64,000 nucleotides of DNA from Candidatus Bathyarchaeia archaeon (lineage in GTDB: Bacteria; Patescibacteriota; Microgenomatia; PFEM01; JAFGMK01). Position 1 is the first letter of the stretch; every line of letters begins with the position of its first letter. Of this stretch, positions 4,835 to 55,343 are shown one piece after another. The notes below the pieces were generated by a model, which had not been told where the DNA came from, ran no database searches, and saw only the letters and a list, made by a program, of their open reading frames with translations. The position numbers were made by a program, and so were the translations under genes. The stretch spans positions 601 through 64,600 of the forward strand of contig DATKWK010000023.1 of the NCBI GenBank assembly GCA_035529595.1. The letters are read 5' to 3'.

Positions 4835-4848
4835 ACACCTTGGTACAA
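4808..4848. repeat. REP-like element copy 1 (GTTCACCCCGGGGGTG hairpin plus TAGACACCTTGGTACA box)
   Basis: It has the same composite motif as copies at 17395, 54571, 55287 and 60818. It sits between convergent genes. Confidence 0.6.
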
Positions 4849-8626: not shown

Positions 8627-9309
8627 GTTTGATTAATACAAACCCGGGAATGAATATTGAAACAAACCGGGTAGATAAAAGCATGGCACCAGCGGTAATA
8701 GTAATATTCGCCCTCTTGTCTGTTGAACTCGCCCGGTTGCCAATCAATTCTATCAATAACCTGAAAATCAACTCCGGTAATTCCATCCGGACAGTCAGTC
8801 CAAGCCTCGGCTTCAAAGCAGATCCTCTGTAGGTCGAGGTTTTCTAAACTGGGAAGCGGATTCCAGTTAGCGTCATAGGCAGTCAGACCGGTACAGAAAA
8901 AATCGCAGGTTGGTGTGATAGTTATTGTTGGCGGAGGAGGTGGAGTTGGAGTCGGGGTGCCGGTTAATGGTGGCGGTGTCGGTGTCGGACTTGGAGTACT
9001 GGTTAATGGTGGTAGGGTCGGGGTGGGGGTTTTGGTTGCCGGCGGTGGAGTTGGAGTCGGGGTCTTGGTTGACGTCGGAGTAACGGTCGGGGTCGGAACG
9101 TAGAAAAGAATAGAACAATTTAGTTGGCGATATTCAACAGCTTCAGTGCGCTTAGGTACAAATTGCGAGGGCGCCTGAGTCGGGCCCGGAAGTCGGGAGA
9201 TAATAAAAACGCTTGCTAAAACTGAGGAGCCTAAAGCGACTACAATCAGAACAGCCATCAGTTTTAGTAACCGTCTGATTTTATCCGGGTTTAAGCTTTC
9301 GAAAAACAT
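8617..9309 (-). CDS. membrane-anchored PT-linker protein with a Cys-rich C-terminal domain
   Basis: N-terminal TM helix, then a TPTPTP linker, then a Cys-rich domain. Confidence 0.45.
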   Translation of the reverse strand: MFFESLNPDKIRRLLKLMAVLIVVALGSSVLASVFIISRLPGPTQAPSQFVPKRTEAVEYRQLNCSILFYVPTPTVTPTSTKTPTPTPPPATKTPTPTLPPLTSTPSPTPTPPPLTGTPTPTPPPPPTITITPTCDFFCTGLTAYDANWNPLPSLENLDLQRICFEAEAWTDCPDGITGVDFQVIDRIDWQPGEFNRQEGEYYYYRWCHAFIYPVCFNIHSRVCINQTCH

Positions 9310-10854: not shown

Positions 10855-11958
10855 CTAATGATTGCCAATTATTCTGGCGACGCCGAAGTTAAGTGAGTGG
10901 TCTGTTCCTTGAAGGCTGCCGGTTCCGGCAATTGCTCCTTGCCAGAATTCACCTCTCGGGGAGGAAAAAAGCTGATTCTCGACAGTCGGTTGGAGAATGA
11001 TCTTCAAATCAGGTTCAGCAACAGTTAGCTTGTAAGCAACCGTAACTCTTTTTCCGCTTGGCGCGGTCCATTGTGCCAAGGGTTCAAGATTAAATTCTGC
11101 AGTCTCAAATTGATTTCCGGTTTCGTCTACGAAACTAAAATATTTATCGGCAACAGAGCCGTCCTGATTGAAGGTTTGCCCAAAAACCGCTTCCGTATGA
11201 TTATCAAACTGCAACCAGAACCACTCATTTGGAGAAGACACAAAGTTGAAATTAGCCAGTTCTTGGTCGGATAAATTCAGCCACTGGTGGTCGAGCCAGG
11301 AAGTTCCGGTAACAGTATGAATGAGATGGGATTGACCTCCGATACTTAAACTACCGCTGGCCTCCTGTCGGGAAAAGGCGTAATAGTGGGCATTGATAGC
11401 CATCTCTTTGATAAATAATGGGACAAATTTATTCCTATTTACAGTTAAAGGGGGTTTTTGGTTATTAAGCATTAATTCAAAAGTCGCTAGCGGTGAATTG
11501 CAGGCAAGTTGGTAAGTGAGTGGCCCCAGCCAGTTACCGGTTAATTTAATTTGATCTTGGCTGTCTTTTCCTCTGAACTCCAGCTGGAAGTTTTCCGGAT
11601 CGTAGGTTATTTCCCCTTCAGCGAATTTTTGGACATTTGCGCCTGAGTCAATATCGGTGAGGGATAATAAAAGCAGGCCATTGGCTTGTTTGCCCAGCTT
11701 GAATAAAGTCAAGAAACCTGAATACCAAGAGATGTCTGTTTTTAGCTTAAAATTAGCCGACCAAGATTCGAGATTGCTTTCTTGGTGGAGGCCTTCGTCT
11801 TCGGGAAAGTTTATTTCTCCGTTCGTGAAGGGGTAAGCTTGCCAAGATTTAGCCCGTGGAGCGGAATACTGGCGCCGTGGTAACCAGAGGTAAACCAGGG
11901 ATAAGGTGAATGCGGCCGAAGCGAGAAAGGTGATGATCGCAAAAAGTGTTTTCTTCAT
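10855..11958 (-). CDS. secreted AttH/CrtC-like lipocalin-domain protein
   Basis: Signal peptide. The motif FPEDEGLHQESNLESW resembles the AttH FPxDHGxH...EWWY region. Confidence 0.45.
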   Translation of the reverse strand: MKKTLFAIITFLASAAFTLSLVYLWLPRRQYSAPRAKSWQAYPFTNGEINFPEDEGLHQESNLESWSANFKLKTDISWYSGFLTLFKLGKQANGLLLLSLTDIDSGANVQKFAEGEITYDPENFQLEFRGKDSQDQIKLTGNWLGPLTYQLACNSPLATFELMLNNQKPPLTVNRNKFVPLFIKEMAINAHYYAFSRQEASGSLSIGGQSHLIHTVTGTSWLDHQWLNLSDQELANFNFVSSPNEWFWLQFDNHTEAVFGQTFNQDGSVADKYFSFVDETGNQFETAEFNLEPLAQWTAPSGKRVTVAYKLTVAEPDLKIILQPTVENQLFSSPRGEFWQGAIAGTGSLQGTDHSLNFGVARIIGNH

Positions 11959-16700: not shown

Positions 16701-16958
16701 ATGAACGGCGAGACAGTGATTATTCGTGATCGGTACCAAATAACCATTCCTTATTCTTTGAGAAAAATGTTAACTTGGTTGGTTCCTAAAAAGGTAGTTC
16801 GGGTTAAGATTATCAATAAAGAAAAAGTCCTAATTGAACCCTATAGAGAGATTAAAGTGGATTGGCAGGAAATTTTCAGGCAGTTGACTATAATCAGAGA
16901 TTGGGGAGCAAAAACCTCTTTAAGTCAATTTATTGCCAAAGATAGGGAGTTCCACTGA
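16701..16958 (+). CDS. vapB: AbrB/SpoVT-type (VapB-like) antitoxin
   Basis: Swapped-hairpin N-terminus (ETVIIRDRYQITIPYSLRKML). Its stop overlaps the PIN gene start (ATGA). Confidence 0.55.
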   Translation: MNGETVIIRDRYQITIPYSLRKMLTWLVPKKVVRVKIINKEKVLIEPYREIKVDWQEIFRQLTIIRDWGAKTSLSQFIAKDREFH

Positions 16959-17371
16959 TGATAAAAATAGTTTTAGATACTTCTGTTATTGTGAAATGGT
17001 TTAGTCAGGAAAAAGAAGCAGACAAGGCGGAAGAATTACTTTGCGACTTGAGAGAAGAGAAAGTTCAGATTCTTTTGCCTGAATTGGTTAAATACGAATT
17101 GGCTAATGCCTTATTGAAGGGAAAGAAACTTAATTCATCTCAGGCTCAAAAAGCTTTAGCGATTTTTTACCGTTTGCCAGTCCTTTATATATCCGAATCA
17201 GAATCTTTGGCCTTTTCTTCTTACAAGATGGCTCAGGATTTAAATATAACTTACTACGATGCTTGCTTTCTCGCCTTAGCCAGAGCCGAAAAAGCAGTTT
17301 TAGTGACTGCTAATCCGAAACATCAGGCAGGAGTCAAAGGGATTAAGATTACCAAACTTCAGGATTATTGA
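16958..17371 (+). CDS. vapC: PIN-domain toxin (VapC-like)
   Basis: IVLDTSVIVKWF N-terminus and conserved acidic positions; the size (137 aa) is typical. Confidence 0.7.
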   Translation: MIKIVLDTSVIVKWFSQEKEADKAEELLCDLREEKVQILLPELVKYELANALLKGKKLNSSQAQKALAIFYRLPVLYISESESLAFSSYKMAQDLNITYYDACFLALARAEKAVLVTANPKHQAGVKGIKITKLQDY

Positions 17372-17613: not shown

Positions 17614-17949
17614 ATGGATAAAACGGTTTTACAAATACCAGTCTCAAAAGATCTTCGGCTTAAAGCTCAGCAAGCTGCTTTTGATCTTGGTTTTTCCTCT
17701 CTTCAAGAAAGTATTCGGCTTTTTTTAAAGAAACTAGCTGACGAAACAGTAACAGTTAGTTTTCATGAAAGAGGAACGATTCAATTGTCGCCAAAAGCTG
17801 CCGTCCGTTATCGTAAAATACTTCAGGATATTAAAGAAAACAAGCATCTTTATTATGCTAAAAACATCAATGATCTTTTTAGTCAATTAGATGGAGATAC
17901 TTTACCACGCCCGGTTTCTAAAAAAATATCGAAAGAGAATTCTTCCTGA
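17614..17949 (+). CDS. RelB/DinJ-like antitoxin
   Basis: 111 aa, lying upstream of and overlapping a RelE/YafQ-like ORF. The N-terminal region is RHH-like. Confidence 0.4.
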   Translation: MDKTVLQIPVSKDLRLKAQQAAFDLGFSSLQESIRLFLKKLADETVTVSFHERGTIQLSPKAAVRYRKILQDIKENKHLYYAKNINDLFSQLDGDTLPRPVSKKISKENSS

Positions 17950-18094
17950 TAAGCGCCTCAAAAGACAGGCTAAACTCAAGTTTGATTTGTTTTCAAAAGA
18001 TCCATTTCATGAATCGTTATCTAGCCATTGCCTAAGAGGCAAAAAGATTGGTTTAAGAGCTTTTTCTGTTACTGGAGATTATCGGGTAATCTAG
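17891..18094 (+). pseudogene. RelE/YafQ-family mRNA interferase toxin, C-terminally truncated
   Basis: HESLSSHCLRGKKIGLRAFSVTGDYRVI matches the RelE/YafQ core (H.L.G....R...V..DYRII). The ORF stops immediately before MITE copy A. Confidence 0.45.
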
Positions 18095-18099
18095 AATTC

Positions 18100-18219
18100 A
18101 TTTCAAAACCTACTTTCTGTGTCATCCTGAGGGGTCGAAATTTCGGCCCCGAAGGATCTAGCGAAGCGCTTACGCTAGATTCCTCGCTCTTGCTCGGAAT
18201 GACAATGGGGTTTTGAAAT
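18100..18219. mobile_element. MITE-like palindromic element, copy A (GTCATCC...GGAATGAC, flanked by ATTTCAAAACC / GGTTTTGAAAT)
   Basis: Terminal inverted repeats with two internal hairpins. It is related to the copies at 24935 and 39801. Confidence 0.55.
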
Positions 18220-18398
18220 AGCTTCTATAAGATGCTTGATAAATCAAAAGTAATTTTTCTTGATATCGGTACTCATAATCAGGTTTATTGATTGGTTTTT
18301 TCAAAAATCTTTCCCGAATCGGCGAAGATACTTCCTCTCCAACTCAGGAAAGATCATGAAGTTTTTTCAGCTTGGGGTAGGAAAAGTCTATAAATCCA

Positions 18399-18447
18399 AA
18401 AAAAAAGCCGGACACGTCTTCCTGTGGGGGGAAGGGTGTCCGGCATC
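18399..18447 (-). terminator. Rho-independent terminator (GCCGGACACCC...GGGTGTCCGGC plus a T9 run on the minus strand)
   Basis: GC-rich stem with a T-run. It is nearly identical to the terminator at 21889..21937. Confidence 0.7.
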
Positions 18448-18469
18448 GGACTGCGGTTTCAAGAAAAGG

Positions 18470-20728
18470 CTACGGCCGTGGTTGTGGGAGGGGTCCAGTG
18501 CGTGCGACGGTGGGTAGATACAGCCACGCCGTAGGCGTGAAGGGAGGTGTGTTGCGCACGACCAGGTCGGCTGTGACCTCCTTGACTATCTGGCCGTTGT
18601 CCCCCTGGAGATGGAAAGTGACCGTTCCCTCTGGGGCTTCTGAGGCGATGCGGACGCCCTCAAGCGGCATAAGGAGACCACAGGTATTGTTGACGTGGGT
18701 CCACCTCGTGGGTCCCTGAACGAAATCCAGAAGATTTGCCGGTTCGGTCTCGGTCCACAGAGAGACTGTTATAGGCGGAGACGGGCAAAACCGCTCCGAG
18801 CCTGCATTTCTCTGGATCCAGTCACCGCCGGGAACGGTAGAACTGGCGTAGAGGTAGAGCTCCAATCGGAACTGGAACTGGTCGGGGTAGAACTGTAGCC
18901 ACTCCATGTCCGTATCCTGGGAACAGGTGTTGTACACATCGGCGTGCCATGCGTACCTGTTCCACTCCGTAGTGATGGGGTACTCGAATGAGTATACTGT
19001 CCAACCGGGTTGTCCTTCGATACAGAAAGCCATTTCGCAGGCGCCCGGCTTGCAGCGCGAAGAACTGTTACAGATCCGAACGGACTGGAGCAGGTCGGGT
19101 GGCCAATTTCCGTTGACTTTCAGGATTGGCCGCTCTCCGAACGGGACCTTCCAGATGCCTCCTTCGAGAAACGCGCGGGAGAGGAAGTCGAGCCTATTCT
19201 CGAGCTGGAGGCCGCTGATGCAGGCCTCGTCGAAGAAGACCCATTCGTAGTCGGCATCCGACCAGGTCTCTCCAGAATCGGTAACCCCCGACACTGACAC
19301 GCGATTGACTTGGTGGCTGTGAGCTGTCCCATTGAGTTGTACCTGGAACTGACACTCGTAGGTATTGCCTGCCTCGACAATTTGGGGAACGGAACAGGTG
19401 CTATCGTCGATCTTGGTAACGTCCCCAAATGCCGAGTCTACGATGGACTGTAGGTGTAGATTCTGGTCTCCGGTTGCCCCTACTACGATCGTAAAGGAGA
19501 CCAAGCCGCCGGGCTGGGCCAGATGGTCTGGGTTGGCAGTCTTGTAGACCTGGACCAGCTCCGGGAGGTCACGGACATCCATTGTAACAACGGCCGTGTC
19601 TTCACCATATCCATTGGTGATGGTATAGGTGAAGGTGTCTATGCCGACCCAGTGTGGTGCCGTTTCTCCTCCGGGAGGAGAGTAGACGAGGTGACCCTCG
19701 TCGTGAATATAGACCTCACCATGTTCTGGTTGCCCGGCCGAGACGAGAGTGAGATTGCTTCCGAACCCCGGGAGGTCGTTTTCCCAAGGCCAGAGCAACA
19801 TTGTCCCGTTGTTTCTGACGATATACAGGTCGTCGATCGCAATGGGCCGGATCAGGTCGGCTGCAACTGTAGGTGGCGTATCGTAGTAGCGGTTGCCGTA
19901 GATATCACGCAGGTCGTTGCATTCCTGGTTAGTGTCAACGTACCAAAGGTCAGCACCCGCAGCCGTCATGGTGGCGACTAGCGAACTGACTGACCTAGTC
20001 GAGCAGCCGTCTCCCAATGCTCCGATCGAACACCTGTATCCTGGATTTGACACGCAGATTCCCCAGGCATGGAGGAGCCACTGGTCGAGATAGGTCCATC
20101 CGCTTGTTGATGCGCCTTGGGCATTGGTGATGGCTATACTGGCGCTCAGTGGTGTTGTAACGGTGACGATCTCTCTGAACGTTGGGTCACCGTTGTAGAA
20201 CCAGGCACCTGCCCGGTCCTCTGTGTGCAGATGAGCTGCGGTCTCCGAGCCGAGCCGGAGCAGACGGTTAAGATTCTCCCGCTCGACAGAACCTGACCCA
20301 TCGAACCCGAACAGGACCAACGTCGGGGTCGATTGCTGCATAGCCGCGAGAACTGTCAGCGCTGGCCGCGAGGGGACCTCGATCACGAACTCGTAGACCT
20401 CGTAGGGCAGCCCCGCTAGCGTCTGTTCGACACGCGTCTCGCAGTTGCCGGCAACCTCCGGATTGAGCGCCTTTACTGCGGCACAGATTTGTTCAACCTT
20501 CTGTGCCAGGCTTGTGCCGGAGGCTAAGTTGATCGTACGTGTGACCGTTTCCCCGGGGGTGGGGACGGTCACTTCGGTCTCGAACCCAAGGGTGGGCTCG
20601 GGATCCTGGCTACGGGGGGCAGCCAGGGCGGATAACGGGTGGATCCCAAGGATCCACACCAGGCCTAACGTAAGAGCGAGGCCTAGGGAAATGACGATTA
20701 CCAGGCGCAGAAGCGCCTTGGTGTTCAT
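18470..20728 (-). CDS. secreted vWA-domain giant protein (MIDAS motif FGFDGSGS) with a large beta-rich C-terminal region
   Basis: I assign the start at ATG 20728, which lies 8 nt after a perfect AGGAGG; the track ORF extends to 20884. There is a signal/TM segment at the N-terminus. The gene is GC-rich, about 55-58% in hand-counted samples. Confidence 0.6.
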   Translation of the reverse strand: MNTKALLRLVIVISLGLALTLGLVWILGIHPLSALAAPRSQDPEPTLGFETEVTVPTPGETVTRTINLASGTSLAQKVEQICAAVKALNPEVAGNCETRVEQTLAGLPYEVYEFVIEVPSRPALTVLAAMQQSTPTLVLFGFDGSGSVERENLNRLLRLGSETAAHLHTEDRAGAWFYNGDPTFREIVTVTTPLSASIAITNAQGASTSGWTYLDQWLLHAWGICVSNPGYRCSIGALGDGCSTRSVSSLVATMTAAGADLWYVDTNQECNDLRDIYGNRYYDTPPTVAADLIRPIAIDDLYIVRNNGTMLLWPWENDLPGFGSNLTLVSAGQPEHGEVYIHDEGHLVYSPPGGETAPHWVGIDTFTYTITNGYGEDTAVVTMDVRDLPELVQVYKTANPDHLAQPGGLVSFTIVVGATGDQNLHLQSIVDSAFGDVTKIDDSTCSVPQIVEAGNTYECQFQVQLNGTAHSHQVNRVSVSGVTDSGETWSDADYEWVFFDEACISGLQLENRLDFLSRAFLEGGIWKVPFGERPILKVNGNWPPDLLQSVRICNSSSRCKPGACEMAFCIEGQPGWTVYSFEYPITTEWNRYAWHADVYNTCSQDTDMEWLQFYPDQFQFRLELYLYASSTVPGGDWIQRNAGSERFCPSPPITVSLWTETEPANLLDFVQGPTRWTHVNNTCGLLMPLEGVRIASEAPEGTVTFHLQGDNGQIVKEVTADLVVRNTPPFTPTAWLYLPTVARTGPLPQPRP

Positions 20729-20730
20729 AT

Positions 20731-21175
20731 GTTCCTCCTTAGTATCTGGTTCCGGTAGCCTCCGATGTTTTGGAGTCCCACCTACCGGAAAAAAGTTGAT
20801 CTTGTGAAACCAGCAGTCCGATGAAAAGCAAAATCGTATTTTGCCATCCCACGCTCCAAGGAGTCCACGCCTTCGGCGGGACACCTTGCAGGAGGGATTA
20901 GCGCTTTTTGCTCTTTACCGGACTGCCGGTTGGGATCAGACTTTTTTCATTTCACCTCGGAGGAGCAAGATCGTTGTCTTGCACCATCCGAGGAGAAAAT
21001 CACTCGGAGGAATTCGCCTCACAACCCTTATGTCCTAATCCCTAAACCCTATATTTTGTAGCCTTTCAAGAAACCAGCTGTTTTGCTGTTTTTTCGACTG
21101 GCTCTTCGCATTACGAAGAACAGTCAAGCAAAACAACAAAGGTAACTTGAAATTGTTATTTCAAGTTGTCAAGGT
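20731..21175 (-). promoter_or_regulatory. promoter/operator plus ~450-nt conserved 5' leader of the vWA gene (copy A)
   Basis: Blocks 20731..20820 and 20913..21175 are near-identical to 24808..24898 and 25108..25330. The promoter region has TTGACA next to the 22-bp perfect palindrome ACTTGAAATAACAATTTCAAGT. Confidence 0.5.
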
Positions 21176-21373
21176 GCAATAGCAGCAATATTTACTGCTT
21201 TTTTGCGAGCCAAGTATTTTAGGCCGGCCGCTTTATGGCCGGTTTTGAATGGTCTTGACCGCAAAGAGGTAGGGGAGAGAGATTTTTCAATTAATTGTTT
21301 TTATCTCTATTTCTTTCCCATCTCTTTAGGGTCAAGGTTTGTTGATTGACTTTTAATTTTTAAAAGATCTGAA

Positions 21374-21658
21374 ATGATTTCAGTGTTAACCAAAACCGAT
21401 TTAAACCAGATTGAAAAATTGATTGACCGGAAACTAGAGGAGAAGTTGAAGAAATTTCTTACTAAAAAAGAATTTGAGGAAAAGATGAATCAGCTCCTCA
21501 CTAAGGATGAGTTTTACGATGCCTTCGATAAGTTGATGAAGGAGCTTCGTAACCACTGTGACGAGAGAGCGGCGGTGATGTTTCGCTTCACCGATCATGA
21601 AGATAGGATCACCACCCTCGGGAAGATCCACGCTTCCGATCTGCCTTCTTCCGGTTGA
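21374..21658 (+). CDS. small K/E-rich hypothetical protein
   Basis: 94-aa low-GC ORF between the two GC-rich cassettes. Confidence 0.35.
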   Translation: MISVLTKTDLNQIEKLIDRKLEEKLKKFLTKKEFEEKMNQLLTKDEFYDAFDKLMKELRNHCDERAAVMFRFTDHEDRITTLGKIHASDLPSSG

Positions 21659-21888
21659 CTAGGTTTTTAAAGTGCGAGCAAAATAACCCCTAGCTTTTTA
21701 CTAAAAAACTCTTTTTTACCAAAAACGGCCTCTTTTGGAGACCAATTTCTTGATCTCTAAAAGCAAGCCGATTATAGCATAAAATTAATGAATAAGCAAT
21801 ATTATAGGATAAGGCAGGTTTTTTCGAAGGTAAGGAATATTGTAAACTGGTTTTACTTTACTGATTGGCTTGAAAAAAGCCGTTAAAT

Positions 21889-21937
21889 CCAAAAAAAAAG
21901 CCGGACATGTCTCCTGTGGGGGGAGGGGTGTCCGGCT
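21889..21937 (-). terminator. Rho-independent terminator, a duplicate of 18399..18447
   Basis: Same hairpin and T-run; it follows the 21963 stop. Confidence 0.7.
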
Positions 21938-21962
21938 CGGACTGCGGTTTCAGGAAAGGCTA

Positions 21963-24802
21963 CTAGCGTGTCACTTGGACGGTGGCGGTCGCGGTATAGA
22001 CCCGACCGCTACTGTTGGACGTCACCGTCCAGATCGCTGTAAACGGCCCGACGTGGTCCGGCGAGCCGGTCCAGGCGTCCCAGTAATTGGTCGAACCGTA
22101 CCAGGCTCCCATCGGGAGCTGACCGGCCGGCCAGCACTGCCAGCCGTCGGACAAGGGGGGAGTCACACAGAGTTGCATGGCCACGACCAGGTCGTGACCG
22201 GAGATGTTGGAAACTCCCCACTGCCAACGGGCCTTAGAGCCTGGTGGAGTGACTACGTTTGGGTTGGGGCTGTTGGTACCCTTGACCCAAACCCTGAGTT
22301 CGGCCGGGGGCGGGCCGGGCGGAGGCCCGAAGATAATGGGTAGCCAGATTCGCGCAACACAGCCTGTGCAAGGTTGGACTGGTAGTCGCGATGGCCATTC
22401 GTAGGCGCCGAGGTCGATGCCACTGCCGTACGGCCTGCTTGCTCCGTAAGCGTCGTGATCGACGATTATGGGTGCCTTTGGATGGTCGCGGCAACGACTG
22501 TCCTTGCCGAGGCTGTAGTCGCCGTTGGCGGGATCGACGAAGAACGGATCTCCGTCGTATAGATCGCCCGAGTCCCAGGTCATTGGCCAGATGGGTCCCT
22601 CCCAACCAACACCTGGCCCAGGTTCAGGCCGCCAGCTGATGTAGTATAGTTCAGTGTAGCTGTGCCCGTCAGCTCGTGCTGCCAGTGTGTTGTTGTCGAG
22701 AATGGTGTTGTACACTTTGACGGTGGGCGCTCCACTGGAGTATTCGATCGCTTTGAAGCCGATCGGGTTATCCACCAAGGTGAGGTGAGCAACCGTTAGT
22801 ACCGATCCGCTATGAACCAGGCGCAGTTGTAGTCCGGCGTCGTTTGCCTTAGCAACGACATCGTTCACGATCTCGAGGTTGCCTGGGATCACAGCATAGA
22901 TGCTGGAGCCCCAGCTCGAATCTGCAAAGTCGCCGATCGAGACGATACCGTCGAGGCTTCCGTTCTGCCGGATACTTCCAACACAGGCTCCGAAGCTATC
23001 GGCATAGTTGTCCTGGCAGCGGATGCGGAAGACGCGGATGTTGCCTGGTCCAACCATGAGGCCTCCGCCTGAGGCGCCGCTTGACCGGTTGTTCTCGAAA
23101 GCACAGTCTTGGACTATGCCTTCGGTGATGTCTAGCCCGCCGCCGGTGAAGCTGGCGATGTTGCCAACGAAGTGGACGTTACGGATCTCGGCTCGGATGC
23201 CGCTAGCGACGTAGATTCCACCACCGGATTCCAAGTTGCCCATTGCCGAGGCATCACCGTTCATGATAGTGAGACCATCGATGGTGATGTCGGGTGTTTG
23301 CATAGCGGCCGCGTAGGCGAGGGAGTCGAACGGCGTGCCGTCGGCGTTGAGCACTTCGTGGGAAATGACTCCCCAGTGCTCGCCATCGCCAGCGAGAGTG
23401 CCGACTTCGGTCTCGGTAGCTGCACCGCAGGAGAGGCTGCTTCAGGAGCAACGTAGATCACTCGGCCGCGGCCTTGGGCATCAAGTGTTGTAGTGTAGGT
23501 GCCCGGTTTCCGGACCGAGAAGTCAGCCGAGTAGCCGCCCAGCAGACTCAAGTGCTGATCTACGAAGACCACTTGCGAGATGGTTTGCGTAGTAGCTTGG
23601 AGCTGCACTGCAGCTAGAAGGGTCTCGACCTCGTGTTGGCGCTTGGTATCGACCAACAGCCGCCAGTCGTCGCCAAGGGCAGCGAGTATGGACGCGTCGG
23701 TTGCGGCTGACTCAGTTCGCGACTGGACGTCGGTGTAGACGCCGCCGGCGATTCGGATCTCAGCGTCCGACTCGGCTCGGTTAACTGCCTGCTGTACTGT
23801 CCGACACGGATTCGTTGCGTCACTGCAGTCGTTGCTATCGTCGCTACCAGCAGTGCTCACGTAGCAGATTTGACAGGTTGGCAGTGGGATTGTCTCAACC
23901 GTCGTAGTCACCACGACCTCATCCCACGATCCCTTTGACCCATCGGTGCGGACTGTAGCTGTGATTGTGCCGATGAAGCTAGGGTTCACCGTGACGACCA
24001 CCGTGGTTTGCCACGTCATGGTCGGCGGCAGATCCGTAACCGTCCATGTGTGGCTGCCACTCGGGCTGACTTGCGACGGCAAGGTCAGAGTGAGGTGGAA
24101 GGTGTCGGTGATCCCGCCGACGTTGGCCAGTTGAACTGTGTAGGTCAGACTTCCGCCGGACGTGACCGGATCGGGTTGGGCCAGGAGGTCAACGTCGACA
24201 TTCGGTTGGTGATTCCGAAGGTCGTCGATAACCTTACCCTCGTCGGGTGGTGGTTGATAGTAATACTCATCCACGCACCCGAGGAGGTCGGTTCCCCCCT
24301 CCTGGTCTTGGATGTAGGCCGCCATAGTATAGCCCTGTGCCCGAAGCTCGTTCAATCGGACGCAGGCTTGGGCCGCGTCGGTACACCAGCCATCGCCGAC
24401 GAAGATGAATCCTCGAGTGCCAGCCCAGGGCAGCCCATCGAACATGGCAACACCGGCCTCAATTGCCGGCAGGCAGTAGGTGTCACCAGTGGGCGTGACT
24501 GTACCGGCTACGCGCAGGAACGCGTCTGAAGCGGTCTGGGGATCGGTCAGCAGCGTGACCGTGTAAAAACGATCCCCGTAGTAACCGCCCCCGGCGACTT
24601 CGGCCTCGTCGGCGTTCAATTCCAAGGCCAACCGGCTGGCGAACCCCAGCCCCTCTTGAGTGTCAGTGAAGGTCCGGCTCCCGGAGGAGTCAACCGCCAC
24701 AAACACACCCATCTTGGGTGAGGCGGCCAGCACGGCCATAACGCCCAGAGCCATCAGGAGCCCCAGGGTGAGAGCGAGAACTAAACGCATCTTTACATTC
24801 AT
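21963..24802 (-). pseudogene. second secreted vWA-domain (FVAVDSSGS) plus parallel beta-helix giant protein, split by a frameshift near 23440 into ORFs 23261..24802 and 21963..23354
   Basis: The upstream ORF ends in a low-complexity out-of-frame tail. The downstream frame is open from a TGA at ~23447 and reads like a beta-helix (GGGIYVASG...NVHFVGN). Same RBS and leader as copy A. Confidence 0.5.
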
Positions 24803-24807
24803 TCTGT

Positions 24808-25330
24808 GTTCCTCCTAAGTATCTGGTTCCGATAGCCTCCGATGTTTTGGAGTCCCACCTACCGGAAAAAAAGTTGATCTTGTGAAACCAGCAGCCCGGG
24901 AAAAAACAGAAGCAAAATTAAATTATGTGATTAAGTCATTCCGAGGGTCGACTATTCGACCCGAGGAATCTAGCGAAGCGTGAATTATTATTCTTATTAT
25001 CGATTTTTACGCTAATGCTGGATTCTTCTCCCACAAAATGCGGGATCAGAATGACCGGTTCTTGTTGCTAATCACTAAAAACTGATCACTGATGGACTGC
25101 TTCTATTCTTTACCGGACTGCCGGTTGGGATCAGACTTTTTTCATTTCACCTCGGAGGAATTCGCCTCACAAACCCTAGACTCTAGTGTCTAATCCCTAA
25201 ACCCTATATTTTGTAGCCTTTCAAGAAACCAGCTGTTTTGCTGTTTTTTCGACTGGCTCTTCGCCTAACGAAGAACAGTCAAGCAAAACAACAAAGGTAA
25301 CTTGAAATTGTTATTTCAAGTTGTCAAAGA
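24808..25330 (-). promoter_or_regulatory. promoter/operator plus leader of the vWA gene, copy B (interrupted by MITE copy B)
   Basis: Sequence identity to copy A. It lacks a 46-nt internal duplication present in copy A. Confidence 0.5.
24935..25055. mobile_element. MITE-like palindromic element, copy B (GTCATTCCGAGGGTCGA...CAGAATGAC)
   Basis: Terminal inverted repeats. It shares the internal TCTAGCGAAGCG motif with copy A and is inserted in the leader. Confidence 0.5.
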
Positions 25331-25656
25331 GCATTGTTGAGAGCAATGGTTAAGAGCAAAGTTCTCTAGCCTTGCGCCCAACCAGCCGATCTCAAGTTGA
25401 TAAAAAGATACTTGCATAACGCTTTCTGAGATAGTCGAATAAATAGACGACCGAGTCGTCCTGAAAGCGATTTTTCAGCATCCACCAATTCATAGTCCTA
25501 TAGTATTCTTAATCTCCTTTGGAAGCTTGATTGGAAAGTCGAAAAAACTAGCAAAAGAGGCCTATTTTTGACAAAAAGATTGACATTTGTTAAACATTAT
25601 GGGATAATCTTACATATAAAAATAAGAGCGGATTTATTTTAAGTTTATATAGGTTA

Positions 25657-26934
25657 ATGGGGGAAATACCAAAATATTTCTATCAATATTATAAGCCTGA
25701 ATTAATCAGGGTTAGTCGCCTGGTTAAAAATGGCCAGGCGGTCATTTTTGTGGGCATTAACGGCATCGGGAAAAACCTCCTGGCCGGTCAAATTTTATCC
25801 AACCGCTTTAGAAAAGAATTTTTAGGCCAGATTAAAACTCATCTGGTTTTTTTGGATTTCAAAGATAAAGCCGCGCCATCCCGGGAACAATTGTTGCAGT
25901 ATTGGCTGTCGCAAACCGCTCAGGCTTTAAAAATAAAGGCGGAAAAACTTAAGCCCCTCAATGAATTCACTTTTTATTCCCAGATGGAGAGGTTGATAAG
26001 GACGGTGGCAGCGGAAGAAAAAATTTGTTTCTTGGTTCTAGACGCGCAACAAATCTTATCTCAAAGTGAACAGTTTTTTGATTGTTTGATTAACCTCAAA
26101 TATTACTCTTACGGTAAAATCTCTTACGTCTTCTTGGCCGAACCCCGGATTTTGGCTCATCCGAATGCCGGATTGCAGCGGTTCATCCAGCGGCTGACGA
26201 ACAATAAATTTTCGTTTTTGAGAACCTTTGATCAAAAAACTTCTCTGGCCGATATTCGACGCGAGGAGAAATTATTTCAAACCAGCTTTGGGGGTCAGGA
26301 GAGAATGATTTTGGAACACTCTCACGGTTTGCACGGCCTGATCAGGGCCTTTAGCGTCTTTTTAAGAAAAAATCCTCAAGTAAAAGATATCAGGCAGCTT
26401 AAAAAAATTCTCTTTGCCAGCCAACTGTATTGCTTTTGGATAAGGGAAATTTTGGAGAGTTTGCCGGCTGAATCATTGCGGATTTTAAAAGCGGTTAGCC
26501 AGAACCGCTCGGAAATCAAACGCTTTAAAAAAAGCCTTTATCTTCAGTGGCTGTTTGATTTAGGGCTTTTAAAAAAGGACGGCCAGCTTAAGCAGCCTTT
26601 GTTTTTACCGGTGTTGGAAAAAATGACGGTGAGTACAAAAAGCCATCAACCGTTAATTAAGTTGGCAGTCGATCAATTTAGCTTTTCCGGAGAAAAAGTA
26701 AAGTTAACTCAAAAAGAGTTTTTAGTCTTACGGACTCTTTATAAGAACAGAGGCAAAGTGGTCAGTTTTGAAAGAATCGGCAATGTCTTGTGGTCAAACA
26801 AACCGGATAATTTTTCCCTGTGGGCGATTAGCCAAGTCATCCGCCGTTTGCGGAAAAAACTCAATTATTATTTTATTAATCCCAAGACCATCTCTTCTTT
26901 AAGAGGAGAGGGTTATTCTTTGGAGGTGAAATGA
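25657..26934 (+). CDS. P-loop ATPase (Walker A GINGIGKN) fused to a C-terminal OmpR/PhoB-type winged-helix DNA-binding domain
   Basis: The C-terminus LTQKEFLVLRTLYKNRGKVVSFERI...VIRRLRKKL...SLRGEGYSL matches trans_reg_C. The N-terminus has Walker A and hhhhD Walker B. Confidence 0.6.
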   Translation: MGEIPKYFYQYYKPELIRVSRLVKNGQAVIFVGINGIGKNLLAGQILSNRFRKEFLGQIKTHLVFLDFKDKAAPSREQLLQYWLSQTAQALKIKAEKLKPLNEFTFYSQMERLIRTVAAEEKICFLVLDAQQILSQSEQFFDCLINLKYYSYGKISYVFLAEPRILAHPNAGLQRFIQRLTNNKFSFLRTFDQKTSLADIRREEKLFQTSFGGQERMILEHSHGLHGLIRAFSVFLRKNPQVKDIRQLKKILFASQLYCFWIREILESLPAESLRILKAVSQNRSEIKRFKKSLYLQWLFDLGLLKKDGQLKQPLFLPVLEKMTVSTKSHQPLIKLAVDQFSFSGEKVKLTQKEFLVLRTLYKNRGKVVSFERIGNVLWSNKPDNFSLWAISQVIRRLRKKLNYYFINPKTISSLRGEGYSLEVK

Positions 26935-29132: not shown

Positions 29133-29373
29133 GTTCTTCATTGGTCGGTCATGGAGTTTTTATTCATAATTGAGTGTCGATATGCCGGTGATTTCATATT
29201 GGGCTTGAACTTTCTTGACAAAACATTATTAACCACTAATCTTCTTACCTTGGGCAGATATGGACTACTGGTATAAGCCATTTTAAACATCCTTTCCGGC
29301 AAGTTATAGAACCAATATTTGATTCTACCAGTGTTTCCAAGGTATTGAGTAATTACATTAAGAGCCTATAGTA

Positions 29374-29402
29374 TTGACTTAATAACCTATTTTGGTTATA
29401 AT
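29374..29402 (+). promoter_or_regulatory. near-consensus sigma70-type promoter (TTGACT, 17-nt spacer, TATAAT)
   Basis: Read directly from the sequence. It lies ~440 nt upstream of the kinase-like gene. Confidence 0.45.
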
Positions 29403-29848: not shown

Positions 29849-30757
29849 ATGTCTAAGCAACAGTTGTGTGTTTCCGAAGTTCTGCCCGGTGCGTTCGTGG
29901 GCGTATCCTCCCAAACTATTCCGTGGGAGGAATTACCCGATCCTTTTGCACTTCCAATCCTCTCGGGAGCAACAGGAGTGGAGAAGGTGAATCTGGGGAA
30001 AAAGGCTCGGATGTGGCGAGCTGATTTGCCTTGCGGTCAACCGGTCCGTGTCAAGCAGGAGTCCCGTCTCGACCCTTGGTGGCACGAGGTTTGGTGTCTC
30101 AAACTCTTGCGCGATTACGACGCCGGTTTTCCGAGGTTGCTGGAAGTTCGAGAGGACGCACGGGTGATGGTTGTCACCGAACTCCCCGGTCAGAATACTG
30201 ACCATTATAGGGGGCCAGGTGTGGATCCCAGAACCCGTGTATCGATCCTGGAGCAGCTCGCTTTGCGGATGGAAGAAATGGCCGACATTGGTGTTGCCCA
30301 CGCCGATGTTTGGTGGGACAACGAGCTTTGGGATCCAGCGTCGGAAAGGCTCAGTATGGTGGACTTCGGCTCCAGTGCCCTCGTAGGTGATAAGCCTTTG
30401 GTGGCTATCCAGGGCCATCGTAAGAACCGAAATTCCAGGACGTGTCCTGGAATTCCTCACCATCCACCGGAGACGGTGTGGGAGTGGGAGCTCCCTCTTG
30501 TCGACGTCAACCGCTTCTACTACGCGGTGGAAGTGTTGGCTTTCGTCTGGGGAGAGGCTGTTGTCAGGCAAATTGCCTACACAAGCGAACTCCGTGTCAT
30601 GGTACCCTGGTTTGTGAGGCAAATGATCTCCCCCAAGACACCGGCCGAGGCAGGCTTACTAGAGGCTCTTTGTACGGCTTTAGACCCGCGCCCGGACCAT
30701 CGTGAAGCCAGCATCCCTGAGATGCTCGACCTCGCAAAGGAGGTGCTGATGCAGTAA
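29849..30757 (+). CDS. protein-kinase-like fold phosphotransferase; GC-rich
   Basis: VAHADVWWDNELWD resembles a catalytic loop and SMVDFGSS resembles a DFG motif. The gene is about 60% GC in one hand-counted sample. Confidence 0.45.
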   Translation: MSKQQLCVSEVLPGAFVGVSSQTIPWEELPDPFALPILSGATGVEKVNLGKKARMWRADLPCGQPVRVKQESRLDPWWHEVWCLKLLRDYDAGFPRLLEVREDARVMVVTELPGQNTDHYRGPGVDPRTRVSILEQLALRMEEMADIGVAHADVWWDNELWDPASERLSMVDFGSSALVGDKPLVAIQGHRKNRNSRTCPGIPHHPPETVWEWELPLVDVNRFYYAVEVLAFVWGEAVVRQIAYTSELRVMVPWFVRQMISPKTPAEAGLLEALCTALDPRPDHREASIPEMLDLAKEVLMQ

Positions 30758-54570: not shown

Positions 54571-54616
54571 TGACACCCCGGGGGTGCACTGCTATTGACA
54601 CCTTGGTACAGAGGTG
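54571..54616. repeat. REP-like element copy 3 (GACACCCCGGGGGTGCAC hairpin plus TATTGACACCTTGGTACA)
   Basis: It lies immediately upstream of the Y1 transposase start. Confidence 0.6.
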
Positions 54617-54632
54617 TTATTTTATCCTCAGA

Positions 54633-55286: not shown

Positions 55287-55343
55287 CCAAGGTGTCTACT
55301 TATGTACACCCCGGGGGTGAACGCATATAGACACCTTGGTAGA
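55287..55343. repeat. REP-like element copy 4 (CCAAGGTGTCTA, then a TACACCCCGGGGGTGAAC hairpin, then TAGACACCTTGGTAGA)
   Basis: It lies between the transposase stop and the rplL stop. Confidence 0.6.

What the first reader, a model, noticed from the sequence alone, without database searches (positions are those of the whole stretch)
18100..25330. GC-rich, MITE-bounded island with two duplicated promoter-leader-gene-terminator cassettes for secreted vWA giant proteins
In hand-counted 60-nt samples, genes 18470..20728 and 21963..24802 run at about 55-58% GC, against about 37-47% in flanking genes. Each gene is preceded by the same ~90-nt RBS-proximal block and the same ~260-nt distal block. The distal block contains TTGACA next to a 22-bp perfect palindrome. 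Each gene ends in the same hairpin-T9 terminator (18399..18447 and 21889..21937). The proteins share only an N-terminal signal plus vWA MIDAS motif (DGSGS / DSSGS) and then diverge into large beta-rich domains, so the regulatory shell is duplicated but the payloads differ. The island is bracketed by palindromic GTCATTC...GAATGAC elements, copy A at 18100 and copy B at 24935. This suggests a horizontally acquired, possibly mobilisable cassette system for variable secreted adhesin-like proteins.
Basis: partly seen in the sequence, partly recalled or inferred. Interest (0 to 1): 0.75.

Follow-up and report, generated by a model that had tools for sequence, protein, structure and literature searches.

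The report
Conserved RNA-like shell around foreign adhesin genes
Two neighbouring genes for secreted, adhesin-like vWA proteins with foreign (high-GC) composition each sit inside the same structured non-coding shell, and that shell recurs around a related high-GC gene in a second low-GC bacterium, so it looks like a conserved, undescribed expression cassette and not a MITE-bounded island.

Summary
Two minus-strand genes (18470-20728 and 21963-24802) have GC 0.58-0.60 and GC3 0.68-0.70, against about 0.44 and 0.45 in the host. Both carry near-identical 5' blocks and the same hairpin-T9 terminator. Their shared N-terminal domain is a divergent MIDAS vWA domain.

Corrections:
- Gene 2 is split by a frameshift.
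- The proteins are not giant (752 and about 945 aa).
- "MITE" copy B lies inside cassette 2's leader, so the island is not MITE-bracketed.
- The source is bacterial, despite its NCBI label of Bathyarchaeia.

New finding: a metagenome locus (L011) from another low-GC bacterium has a 56%-identical payload. That payload is also GC-rich (GC3 0.64 against about 0.34 in its neighbours) and sits in the same shell, with compensatory base changes in the hairpins. The shell has two 5' hairpins, a 20-nt motif whose inverted copy overlaps the stop codon, a 25-29-bp stem-loop, a hairpin before a perfect Shine-Dalgarno site, and a two-tier terminator with a conserved loop.

Best reading: a conserved, structured mRNA leader and trailer, not in Rfam, that brackets Chloroflexota-type adhesin ORFs. 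The RNA-level mechanism is inferred. DNA-level recombination is not excluded. The persistently high GC3 is unexplained.

The parts
21144..21172 (-). Cassette 1, start of the shell: TTGACA (21167-21172) overlapping hairpin H1, AACTTGAAAT-AACA-ATTTCAAGTT
   Evidence: Exact second copy at 25299-25322. Conserved in L011 with one compensatory pair. Similarity between c1, c2 and L011 begins here.
21077..21137 (-). Cassette 1, hairpin H2: a long imperfect hairpin with lower stem GTTGTTTTGC/GCAAAACAGC
   Evidence: The distal block folds with z = -4.8 on the gene strand. The lower stem is conserved and the upper stem has a different sequence in L011 but still pairs.
21058..21077 (-). Cassette 1, motif c: CTGGTTTCTTGAAAGGCTAC, the 5' partner of the 3' motif
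   Evidence: Invariant apart from a 2-nt insert in L011. Predicted duplex with the 3' motif is -25.8 kcal/mol, and 0 of 300 shuffles reach it.
20808..20931 (-). Cassette 1, hairpin H3: motif d (ACCGGCAGTCCGGT, 20917-20930) pairs with motif e (GGACTGCTGGTTTC, 20806-20819) in a 25-bp stem around a variable loop
   Evidence: MFE -71 kcal/mol, z = -8.1. The d x e duplex is -27 kcal/mol in all three cassettes.
20734..20788 (-). Cassette 1, leader hairpin (20752-20788) and perfect Shine-Dalgarno AGGAGG (20734-20739)
   Evidence: About 97% identical to 24811-24865. A hairpin sits at the same place in L011 with 2 compensatory pairs. A 6/6 SD is found only on cassette genes.
18470..20728 (-). Gene 1 (752 aa): signal-peptide-like N-terminus, roughly 90 aa of extra sequence between it and the vWA domain, divergent vWA (about residues 132-294), Big_9/DUF7507 Ig-like domains, orphan C-terminal region ending ...WLYLPTVARTGPLPQPRP
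   Evidence: GC 0.581, GC3 0.679. Pfam Big_9 at 1.6e-9. vWA by profile search. Only 5 distant partial homologues. NCBI names it an Ig-like domain-containing protein.
18444..18473 (-). Cassette 1, 3' motif: GTAGCCTTTTCTTGAAACCGCAGTCCGATG. The stop codon TAG lies inside GTAGCC. It is an inverted copy of motifs c and e.
   Evidence: 18 of 19 nt complementary to motif e, local-alignment score 31 against a shuffle maximum of 24. Duplexes of -25.8 (with c) and -30.5 (with e) kcal/mol.
18398..18444 (-). Cassette 1, two-tier terminator hairpin (18407-18444) with loop CCCCACA, followed by U9 (18398-18406)
   Evidence: z = -3.6. Seven of 14 stem pairs differ from L011 by compensatory changes while the loop is kept.
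25213..25327 (-). Cassette 2: TTGACA with H1 (25299-25327), H2 (25232-25292) and motif c (25213-25232)
   Evidence: 97-100% identical to cassette 1. z = -4.8. The c x 3' duplex is -28.7 kcal/mol.
24886..25126 (-). Cassette 2, hairpin H3: a 29-bp stem (motif d at 25112-25125, motif e at 24884-24897) whose apical loop holds the palindromic element 'MITE B' (24935-25057)
   Evidence: MFE -99 kcal/mol, z = -9.3. The inner half of the stem differs from cassette 1 but stays complementary.
24811..24865 (-). Cassette 2, leader hairpin (24829-24865) and SD AGGAGG (24811-24816)
21963..24802 (-). Gene 2: signal peptide, vWA, DUF11/CARDB-like Ig domain, right-handed beta-helix, LPIIFG motif and a C-terminal domain. 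It is interrupted by a frameshift: the N-terminal ORF is 23261-24802 and the C-terminal reading frame is open over 21963-23441.
   Evidence: GC3 0.68-0.70. Frames shown. The same split appears in Logan contig L012. Homologues carry PF13229 and are named Ardenticatenia and Anaerolineae. The N-terminal part is 56% identical to the L011 ORF.
21891..21963 (-). Cassette 2: 3' motif (21935-21963, TAGTAGCC gives two in-frame stops), terminator hairpin (21900-21936) and U9 (21891-21899)
18121..18203 (.). Palindromic element 'MITE A' (GTCATCC...GAATGAC, with outer inverted repeat 18092-18227), about 195 nt downstream of cassette 1's terminator
   Evidence: (I3, I5). Its inner hairpin GGTCGAAATTTCGGCC belongs to a motif found only at MITE A, at MITE B and 65 nt upstream of the L011 shell.
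21374..21658 (+). Context: a host-like (Lys-rich, GC 0.425) 94-aa ORF on the opposite strand between the two cassettes
   Evidence: It is a singleton with no family.

Best explanation
SHOWN
- The region holds two tandem copies of a conserved, self-contained expression cassette. Each is one ORF for a secreted-looking, MIDAS-vWA, adhesin-like surface protein, enclosed from the ribosome-binding site to the stop codon by a structured non-coding shell.
- The ORFs have high-GC-type composition and codon usage. Their relatives are in Chloroflexota-like high-GC genomes.
- The shell is AT-rich like the host.
- The same shell surrounds a homologous, equally GC-rich ORF in a second low-GC bacterium, with compensatory substitutions in its stems.

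INFERRED
- The shell acts at the RNA level as a long 5' leader plus 3' trailer of a single mRNA.
- Reading 5' to 3', the leader would contain hairpins H1 and H2, a single-stranded 20-nt motif c, a 25-29-bp stem H3 with a loop that tolerates insertions, a small hairpin, and a perfect Shine-Dalgarno site.
- Directly at the stop codon lies the reverse complement of motif c, followed by a two-tier intrinsic terminator with a conserved loop.
- Pairing of c with the 3' motif would close the mRNA around the ORF, like a processing stalk or panhandle. The long stems look like RNase III-type substrates.
- I therefore propose that the shell controls maturation, stability or translation of a foreign-type, SD-dependent mRNA in a host whose own genes mostly lack SD sequences.
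- The two window shells are kept 97-100% identical by gene conversion that stops where the divergent ORFs begin.
- The payload genes came by horizontal transfer from a high-GC lineage.
For: - Composition and codon usage.
- vWA: MIDAS residues are conserved. A two-sequence profile hits canonical multi-VWA proteins at E 2e-19 to 1e-6. VWA is the only Pfam hit for either domain, though sub-threshold. The weak AF2 model has a beta-alpha order, and its best PDB matches are vWA domains.
- Donor-type relatives: Ardenticatenia and Anaerolineae beta-helix/DUF11 proteins. P0024 (33% identical, same architecture, same C-terminal YLPVVMR-type motif) sits in a 0.58-GC contig with no shell.
- Shell conservation: L011 and L010 carry all the modules.
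- Structure: the distal block has z = -4.8. H3 has z = -8.1, -9.3 and -10.1. The terminator has z = -3.6 to -5.0.
- Compensatory pairs between cassette 1 and L011: terminator 7 of 14, leader hairpin 2 of 7, H1 1 of 10, H2 lower stem 1 of 10. The inner half of H3 differs between c1, c2 and L011 yet stays paired.
- Long-range complementarity: c x 3' is -24 to -29 kcal/mol and d x e is -27 kcal/mol in all three cassettes, with 0 of 300 shuffles reaching those values.
- In L011 the H3 loop is only about 30 nt, which is too short for a DNA inversion. In c2 a 123-nt element sits in the H3 loop without disturbing the stem.
- A 6/6 SD occurs only on the three cassette genes, and host genes score 2-4.
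- The L011 shell has the GC content of its host's intergenic DNA (0.34). The window shells are somewhat above theirs (0.41-0.46 against 0.32-0.37).
- Precedent for 5'-3' UTR pairing in a bacterial mRNA: icaR (PMC3868564, found).
Against: - No transcript data exist. The promoter is not identified, and no conserved good sigma-70 match lies upstream of H1/H2. If transcription starts inside the H3 loop, where weak -35/-10-like matches exist in c1 and c2 and where I read a similar GTTACA-16-TATTTT match by eye in L011 (sequence, not reported by the scan), then motifs c and d would not be transcribed.
- There are only three cassettes from two organisms, so covariation statistics are weak. Motifs c, d and e are conserved in sequence with no covariation, which fits protein or DNA recognition equally well.
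- Pairing across 2.3-2.9 kb of translated mRNA is unusual in bacteria.
- HGT does not easily explain why gene 2 and its L011 homologue (56% aa identity, so synonymous sites should be saturated) both still have GC3 of 0.64-0.70.
- No Rfam family matches, so there is no external support.
Confidence: 0.5

Rival explanations
1. DNA-level recombination system. Motifs c, d, e and the 3' motif would be sites for a site-specific recombinase or HUH/Y1 enzyme. The inverted repeat c/3' that brackets leader plus ORF would be an invertible (ON/OFF) or excisable gene cassette. The shell would act as a capture-and-expression platform or as the ends of a non-autonomous mobile element, and the small palindromic elements nearby would be part of that machinery.
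For: - Sequence-invariant inverted repeats of 18-23 nt flank each ORF in both organisms (I6/I8/I18, 48, 107).
- The 3' repeat ends exactly at the stop codon.
- The cassettes sit in unrelated neighbourhoods in the two organisms.
- A GGTCGrAA..TTyCGrCC hairpin element occurs only next to cassettes: window 18133, window 24946 and L011 3369.
- A Y1_Tnp (IS200/RAYT-type) gene lies in the window at 54603-55286.
- Payload composition would fit repeated capture of foreign ORFs.
Against: - No recombinase or integrase was found among the ORFs scanned near either locus.
- The Y1 gene has its own, unrelated REP units.
- No target-site duplications, and conservation extends outside the c/3' repeats (H1, H2, terminator).
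- No attC-like paired core sites.
- All four independent contigs show the same orientation (L001, L012, L010, L011).
- The d/e repeat encloses only about 30 nt in L011, which is too short to invert.
- The shell is absent from plasmid, phage and viral collections.
Confidence: 0.2
2. An ordinary horizontally acquired island followed by a recent tandem duplication. One foreign fragment carrying its own promoter, UTR and terminator was acquired, duplicated, and one copy was later replaced or recombined. The shell would have no function beyond generic expression signals, and the inverted repeats would be relics.
For: - The two shells are 97-100% identical.
- The composition is foreign.
- SD use is atypical for the host.
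- The island sits next to two toxin-antitoxin-like modules, a common feature of variable regions.
Against: - A recent duplication cannot yield ORFs that share only 28% identity over 170 aa while the flanks stay 97-100% identical.
- The shell is conserved at about 72% in another organism, with compensatory stem changes and retained long-range complementarity.
- The L011 shell has the GC content of its host's intergenic DNA, and not that of its payload. The window shells lie between the two.
- The high-GC homologue locus (L005) has no shell.
Confidence: 0.1
3. The payloads are long-term residents, and their high GC is maintained in situ by selection on the mRNA or by GC-biased gene conversion among many such cassettes elsewhere in the genome. 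On this view it does not reflect recent transfer.
For: - Gene 2 and the L011 ORF are diverged homologues (56% aa), yet both keep GC3 of 0.64-0.70 inside the same shell.
- GC3 is uniform along each ORF and bounded by start and stop.
- The L011 payload is slightly lower in GC3 in the lower-GC host.
Against: - Amino-acid composition (Lys 1.2-1.4%; rich in Ala, Gly, Thr, Val and Pro) and GC1/GC2 are also of the high-GC type.
- The homologues with known context lie in high-GC DNA (L003 at 0.62, L005 at 0.58), and the named ones are Chloroflexota.
- Ribosomal protein L1 and MreB in the window are not GC-rich.
- Only two cassettes are seen in 64 kb, so a large converting family is not demonstrated.
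Confidence: 0.15

Closest known systems
5'-3' UTR base-pairing in bacterial mRNAs (icaR of Staphylococcus aureus, PMC3868564) and the leader/trailer processing stalks of rRNA operons cut by RNase III (the latter from my own knowledge)
   Same: A 3' sequence just after the ORF is complementary to a 5' leader sequence of the same transcription unit. Long double-stranded stems are present that could be RNase III substrates.
   Different: Here the 3' element overlaps the stop codon and pairs with a leader motif far upstream of the SD, not with the SD itself. The architecture brackets a 2.3-2.9 kb protein-coding ORF. No experimental data exist.
Conserved 5' regions shared by variable surface-protein genes (Borrelia erp 'upstream homology box'; Mycoplasma vsp/vlp/vsa loci; from my own knowledge, not tested here)
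   Same: Nearly identical non-coding upstream regions, with similar signal peptides, precede strongly divergent surface-protein coding regions in small-genome, host-dependent bacteria.
   Different: Those systems have many paralogues of host-like composition, and several use site-specific inversion or slipped-strand switches. Here there is a conserved 3' element as well, the payloads are compositionally foreign, and no switch is shown.
Integron gene cassettes and attC arrays
   Same: Repeated structured non-coding elements flank unrelated ORFs of atypical composition.
   Different: No integrase was found, and there are no attC-like R''/R' core pairs. Each cassette carries its own leader, SD and terminator, and the cassettes are separated by host DNA.
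Invertons (phase-variable invertible promoters, e.g. fimS, Bacteroides capsule promoters, C. difficile cwpV)
   Same: Inverted repeats lie upstream of surface-protein genes.
   Different: The d/e repeat encloses as little as about 30 nt. The c/3' repeat encloses the whole gene and not a promoter. There is no recombinase nearby, and only one orientation is seen in four contigs.
Bacterial vWA (MIDAS) adhesin and pilus-tip proteins
   Same: Signal peptide, a vWA domain with a complete DxSxS...T...D motif, then Ig-like or beta-helix domains.
   Different: The vWA domain is too divergent for Pfam thresholds. The family is tiny: four members among 1.84 billion representatives.

Membership tests
von Willebrand factor A domain (Pfam PF00092 clan) | MIDAS residues DxSxS ... 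T ... D in the right order and spacing | tested here: met
   D11, S13, S15, T81 and D110 are invariant in the alignment of the two window domains. The corresponding residues are also aligned in P0024, and the D-G motif in P0026.
von Willebrand factor A domain (Pfam PF00092 clan) | Score above Pfam's gathering threshold | tested here: not met
   11.9 and 14.4 bits against a cutoff of 23.8. VWA is nevertheless the only family hit for both domains. There was no hit when the full-length proteins were scanned.
von Willebrand factor A domain (Pfam PF00092 clan) | Profile-level homology to bona fide vWA domains | tested here: met
   A profile built from the two domains hits proteins at E 2e-19, 2.5e-17 and 3.3e-8, among others. 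Pfam scores those proteins as multi-VWA at 1e-153 to 1e-87.
von Willebrand factor A domain (Pfam PF00092 clan) | alpha/beta Rossmann-like vWA fold | tested here: inconclusive
   The AF2 model has pLDDT 60 and pTM 0.55, with a beta-alpha-beta-beta-alpha-alpha-beta-alpha-beta order. Its top Foldseek PDB hits are TRAP, NorD and CMG2 vWA domains, but only at E 0.013-0.17 and TM about 0.48.
MITE | Terminal inverted repeats, target-site duplication and many dispersed copies | tested here: inconclusive
   There is a 7-nt terminal inverted repeat, GTCATyC/GAATGAC, and internal hairpins. Only 2 copies occur in 64 kb. No target-site duplication was seen. A related inner hairpin lies next to the L011 cassette.
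Horizontally acquired genomic island | Deviant base composition and codon usage relative to the host | tested here: met
   GC3 is 0.68-0.70 against about 0.45 in the host. Codon-usage distance to the host is 1.98-2.09, against 0.90 between the two window payloads and 1.05-1.12 to genes of a high-GC contig.
Horizontally acquired genomic island | Integration hallmarks: tRNA junction, integrase, direct repeats | tested here: not met
   The tRNAs lie at 7.8 and 10.8 kb, not at the island. No integrase was found in the scanned ORFs. No flanking direct repeats apart from the shells themselves.
Integron cassette | attC with paired R''(RYYYAAC)/R'(GTTRRRY) cores, and an IntI integrase | tested here: not met
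   No paired core sites in any of the three 3' regions. No integrase hit. A dedicated attC model such as HattCI was not run.
Inverton / invertible gene segment | Inverted repeats, both orientations present in the population, and a cognate recombinase | tested here: inconclusive
   Inverted repeats are present and significant. Only one orientation is seen in L001, L012, L010 and L011. No recombinase was found. Raw reads could not be examined.
Intrinsic (Rho-independent) terminator | GC-rich hairpin immediately followed by a U-run | tested here: met
   A 9+5 bp two-tier stem followed by U9 in both window cassettes, with z = -3.6. L011 has an equivalent stem with the U-run (U7) set 7 nt after it (UUCCUCC spacer).
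Any described RNA family (Rfam 15) | Covariance-model match | tested here: not met
   Only two tRNAs reach gathering score in the window. Nothing meaningful at E<=5 in 18000-25700.
5'-3' UTR pairing element (icaR-like) | Complementary 5' and 3' segments within one transcript that affect translation or stability | not testable with these tools
   Complementarity is shown and conserved. Co-transcription and any effect need RNA data.

The most novel reading that the evidence does not exclude
A lineage of small-genome, low-GC bacteria keeps a dedicated, conserved RNA/DNA shell that holds compositionally foreign ORFs exactly from ribosome-binding site to stop codon. Under this reading the shell is one of two things. 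It could be a capture-and-expression platform for surface-protein genes taken repeatedly from high-GC (Chloroflexota-like, possibly host) organisms, which would be an integron-like function without an integrase. Or it could be an mRNA 'processing stalk' that makes SD-dependent foreign mRNAs usable in a largely SD-less host. Either version would also account for the payloads staying GC-rich in two diverged hosts.
Probability: 0.2. Interest if true: 0.85.

Novelty: new variant of a known kind. Interest (0 to 1): 0.6.

Why it matters
If the shell is a functional leader/trailer, it is an undescribed cis-acting RNA architecture: it has no Rfam match and its 5'-3' pairing is anchored at the stop codon. 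It is tied to adhesin-like surface proteins in poorly known, probably symbiotic small-genome bacteria. It would give a concrete handle on two questions: how such organisms express genes taken from unrelated, high-GC neighbours, and why those genes do not drift to host composition. The conserved motifs can be turned directly into a covariance model to find more cassettes. If the shell is instead a set of recombination sites, it would be a new kind of gene-cassette system. Even the conservative reading is useful. It corrects the 'MITE-bounded island' picture and flags a MAG whose deposited taxonomy (Bathyarchaeia) conflicts with its bacterial gene content.

Tried and rejected
- Leader 21-mer (GGGACTCCAAAACATCGGAGG) scans: one chance hit inside a Papillibacter coding region in genome contigs, none in metagenome contigs, none in viral contigs. 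In hindsight this hairpin is window-specific.
- Conserved motifs c and d, and the MITE core, against viral contigs: nothing.
- The 458-nt 5' shell against plasmids and phages with blastn: nothing.
- Rfam at gathering and at E<=5: nothing relevant.
- nhmmer with three shell modules against the window and all fetched loci: no further copies.
- Single-sequence AF2 of gene 1: pLDDT 39, unusable.
- PDB sequence searches: no hits.
- Word-indexed homologue search with the family alignment: self hits only.
- Mini-ORF MKKV* with an SD inside the distal block: not conserved in L011, dropped.
- 'Hybrid att site' reading of the 3' motif (left arm of e plus right arm of c): fits the window but not L011, dropped.
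- TTGACA plus palindrome as promoter and operator: no acceptable -10 in either organism, left open.
- Link between the window's Y1_Tnp/REP system and the shell: the REP units (CACCCCGGGGGTG...GACACCTTGGTA) are unrelated in sequence.
- Chimeric assembly as the cause of the GC step: rejected. Independent Logan contigs cross from the GC-rich genes into AT-rich host flanks, and L010/L011 show the same pattern.

Full report
**1. The observation**

A 1-kb GC profile shows 0.565-0.601 across 19-21 kb and 22-25 kb, against 0.35-0.50 almost everywhere else in the window. At 100-nt resolution the GC step coincides with the ORF boundaries. The effect is not only a matter of amino-acid content. GC3 is 0.679 for 18470-20728 and 0.700 and 0.683 for the two pieces of 21963-24802. 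The 45 other ORFs range from 0.21 to 0.62 and are typically about 0.45.

Repeat finding and pairwise alignment confirm three shared blocks on the minus strand:
- an RBS-proximal block, 20730-20833 and 24807-24911, about 97% identical;
- a distal block, 20912-21178 and 25107-25333, 97-100% identical with one 47-nt indel;
- a 3' block with a strong hairpin and U9, 18398-18473 and 21891-21963.

None of these blocks occurs elsewhere in the 64 kb.

Four corrections are needed:
- Gene 2 is split by a frameshift between 23441 and 23261. An independent Logan assembly shows the same split.
- The proteins are 752 aa and about 945 aa, so they are not giant.
- Only two GTCATyC...GAATGAC elements exist. 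Copy B (24935-25057) lies inside cassette 2's upstream region, so the island is not bracketed by them.
- There is no good -10 after the TTGACA, and no conserved sigma-70 match in the shared blocks.

**2. The host**

NCBI labels the source 'MAG TPA: Candidatus Bathyarchaeia archaeon' (HUW215xx, VMW41_026xx). The window nevertheless encodes clearly bacterial genes:
- MreB (5.6e-139);
- WecG/TagA;
- ribosomal protein L1;
- an OmpR-type winged-helix regulator;
- a VapC (PIN-domain) toxin with a weak antitoxin-like ORF directly upstream;
- a Y1 transposase.

It also has strong sigma-70-type promoters. I treat the host as a small-genome, low-GC bacterium. A CPR/Patescibacteria affiliation is my inference and was not tested.

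Host genes mostly lack Shine-Dalgarno sequences, scoring 2-4 of 6 against AGGAGG. The cassette genes have a perfect AGGAGG.

**3. The payloads**

The two proteins share a signal-peptide-like N-terminus and about 170 aa at 28% identity, with DxSxS, T and D of a MIDAS motif conserved. Pfam gives only sub-threshold VWA hits. A profile of the two domains, searched against 1.84 billion representative proteins, finds canonical multi-VWA proteins at E 2e-19 and weaker. A low-confidence AF2 model (pLDDT 60) has vWA domains as its best PDB matches. The vWA assignment is therefore supported, as a divergent member.

Downstream of the vWA domain:
- Gene 1 has Big_9/DUF7507 Ig-like domains and an orphan C-terminus. 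It has only five partial homologues.
- Gene 2 has a DUF11-like Ig domain and a right-handed beta-helix. Its nearest named relatives are Ardenticatenia and Anaerolineae proteins.

An aromatic-LP-x-V/I-x-R/G motif lies near the C-terminus of gene 1. It lies in the C-terminal third of gene 2, about 135 aa before the end. The same motif is present in homologues P0018, P0024 and P0026.

P0024 is 33% identical with the same architecture. It sits in a 0.58-GC contig among LacI and ABC-transporter genes, with no trace of the shell.

Codon usage of the payloads clusters with those high-GC genes (distance 1.05-1.19) and with each other (0.90-0.99). It is far from host genes (1.74-2.29), while the two host gene sets resemble each other (0.70). 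A horizontal origin from a Chloroflexota-like lineage is the simplest reading.

**4. The second locus**

The profile search returned P0026, which is 56% identical to the N-terminal 200 aa of gene 2 that it covers. Fetching its locus gave L011 and L010. These are two sister-sample contigs that are identical across the cassette.

The full ORF is L011 3868-5919. It has GC 0.563 and GC3 0.643, in a contig whose other genes have GC3 of 0.17-0.47. Those neighbours are GreA, a VanW-like protein, a Band-7 protein, a type IV pilin and PilO.

The same shell surrounds this ORF, with every module present:
- the palindrome;
- a long hairpin;
- CTGGTTTCTTGA(AT)AAGGCTACAAAAT;
- ACCGGCAGTCCGGTAAAGAATAGAA;
- GGACTGCTGGTTTC;
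- a hairpin followed by AGGAGG;
- a stop codon inside GTAGCC followed by AAGAAACCAG;
- a two-tier terminator with loop CCCACA.

The neighbouring genes are unrelated to those in the window. The shell is therefore a conserved architecture found in at least two organisms, and the window's two copies are not simply a local duplication.

**5. Anatomy and structure**

On the gene strand the distal block folds far better than shuffled sequence (z = -4.8).

Motifs d and e, with their flanks, form a 25-29-bp stem in all three cassettes, with z = -8.1, -9.3 and -10.1. The outer half of this stem is conserved in sequence. The inner half differs between c1, c2 and L011 but remains complementary. The loop is about 30 nt in L011, about 55 nt in c1 and about 170 nt in c2. 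In c2 the loop contains 'MITE B'.

The terminator keeps its two-tier shape and its loop sequence while 7 of 14 stem pairs differ by double substitutions. The leader hairpin has 2 of 7 such pairs.

Motif c is complementary to the 3' motif in all three cassettes, at -24 to -29 kcal/mol, with 0 of 300 shuffles reaching those values. In the window the 3' motif is also an 18/19 inverted copy of motif e.

In c1 and L011 the stop codon lies inside the 3' motif. In c2 it is TAG-TAG, with the second TAG inside the motif.

**6. Mechanism**

I favour an RNA-level role (confidence 0.5). Under this model a long structured leader and a trailer belong to one mRNA. The c:3' helix closes the transcript around the ORF. 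The long stems H2 and H3 act as processing or stability elements of the RNase III substrate type.

Arguments for an RNA-level role over a DNA-level role:
- stem complementarity is preserved through sequence change;
- an insertion is tolerated in the apical loop;
- the loop in L011 is too short for DNA inversion;
- the 3' element is integrated with an intrinsic terminator;
- there is a perfect SD in an otherwise SD-poor genome.

A precedent for 5'-3' UTR pairing in bacteria is icaR (PMC3868564, found). rRNA processing stalks are an analogy from my own knowledge.

What is not shown:
- the promoter;
- the transcript ends;
- any processing.

The near-identity of the two window shells stops within a few nucleotides of the SD-ATG spacer and resumes at the stop codon. 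This is what gene conversion between functional flanks would produce once the ORFs are too divergent to recombine.

**7. Rivals**

- DNA-level recombination (0.2). The invariant inverted repeats, the different genomic neighbourhoods and the co-occurring small hairpin elements fit a recombinase-driven cassette or an invertible gene. Against it: no recombinase, no attC-like sites, no alternative orientation in four contigs, and conservation that extends outside the repeats.
- Plain acquired island plus recent duplication (0.1). This is contradicted by L011 and by flanks at 97-100% identity around ORFs that share only 28% identity.
- GC maintained in situ (0.15). This addresses the one real puzzle. 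Gene 2 and the L011 ORF are diverged enough for synonymous sites to be saturated, yet both keep GC3 of 0.64-0.70. By contrast, the L011 shell has the GC content of its host's intergenic DNA (0.34 against 0.34-0.385). The window shells lie somewhat above theirs (0.41-0.46 against 0.32-0.37). Either related donors supplied both genes independently into the same shell, or something keeps these ORFs GC-rich. I cannot decide between these.

**8. Comparison and verdict**

The payloads are ordinary in kind (vWA adhesin-like proteins) but belong to a very small family. The shell matches no Rfam family and no plasmid, phage or viral sequence. It resembles known ideas:
- conserved upstream boxes of variable surface-protein genes;
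- 5'-3' UTR pairing;
- processing stalks;
- cassette systems.

It is not a member of any family I tested. I rate it a new variant of a known kind, with interest 0.6. The cassette idea survives and is strengthened. The MITE-bounded, mobilisable-island idea does not.

Noticed in passing
window 54603-55286 (+), with 54574-54608, 55285-55341, 4811-4845 and ~60856: A 227-aa ORF with a Pfam Y1_Tnp (IS200/RAYT-type) domain (4.7e-12). It is flanked by palindromic REP-like units (CACCCCGGGGGTG ... GACACCTTGGTA) that recur at two other places in the window. This looks like a RAYT/REP system and is unrelated in sequence to the cassette shell.
   Followed up: partly
whole window (e.g. 34413-35426, 43046-43861, 57515-58348): The deposited taxonomy is 'Candidatus Bathyarchaeia archaeon', but the gene content is bacterial: MreB at 5.6e-139, WecG/TagA, ribosomal protein L1, an OmpR-type regulator and sigma-70 promoters. 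The MAG is probably misclassified, and may be CPR-like.
   Followed up: partly
window 29849-30757 (+) and 40732-41343 (+): Two further ORFs have raised GC3 (0.61 and 0.62) and near-perfect SD sequences, unlike typical host genes. 29849 has a leader of about 450 nt. 40732 has an N_BRCA1_IG domain. They may be other foreign-type genes, with different flanks.
   Followed up: no
window 29333-29378 and L011 3183-3228: A 46-nt promoter-upstream element (GTTTCCAAGGTATTGAGTAATT...ATAGTrTTGAC) is 83% identical between the two organisms. In each it is followed by a near-consensus sigma-70 promoter. In L011 the promoter lies 210 nt upstream of the shell and is followed by a short hairpin-T8 terminator.
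   Followed up: no
window, many ORF starts (e.g. 10855-11958, 14454, 8617-9309): Most host genes have no SD, and several have a TATAAT-like box 10-20 nt before the start codon. This suggests leaderless or very short-leader mRNAs are common in this organism.
   Followed up: partly
window 16701-17371 and 17614-18094: A VapC (PIN-domain) toxin gene (16958-17371) preceded by a small ORF with weak PrlF/MazE antitoxin-like hits, and a second pair whose last ORF has a weak YafQ/RelE-like toxin hit, lie immediately downstream of cassette 1.
   Followed up: partly
window 18133-18148 and 24946-24962; L011 3369-3398: A GGTCGrAA...TTyCGrCC hairpin occurs only three times in 74 kb, and each time it is next to a cassette: inside MITE A, inside MITE B, and 65 nt upstream of the L011 shell. 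The meaning of this association is unknown.
   Followed up: partly
window ~20965-21011: Cassette 1 has a 47-nt insertion in the distal block relative to cassette 2. The insertion is flanked by the direct repeat CCTCCGAG.
   Followed up: no
L011 7144-7261 and 7376-7440, compared with L010: The two sister-sample contigs are identical for 6.5 kb. They then differ by 25 substitutions within 120 nt and by a roughly 65-nt indel inside or next to the VanW-like gene. This is a local recombination tract or a hypervariable patch.
   Followed up: no
window 25657-26934 (+): A 425-aa protein with a C-terminal OmpR/PhoB-type winged helix and an unknown N-terminal 340 aa is transcribed divergently from cassette 2, from a near-consensus promoter (25580-25608). 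It is a candidate regulator of the cassettes.
   Followed up: no
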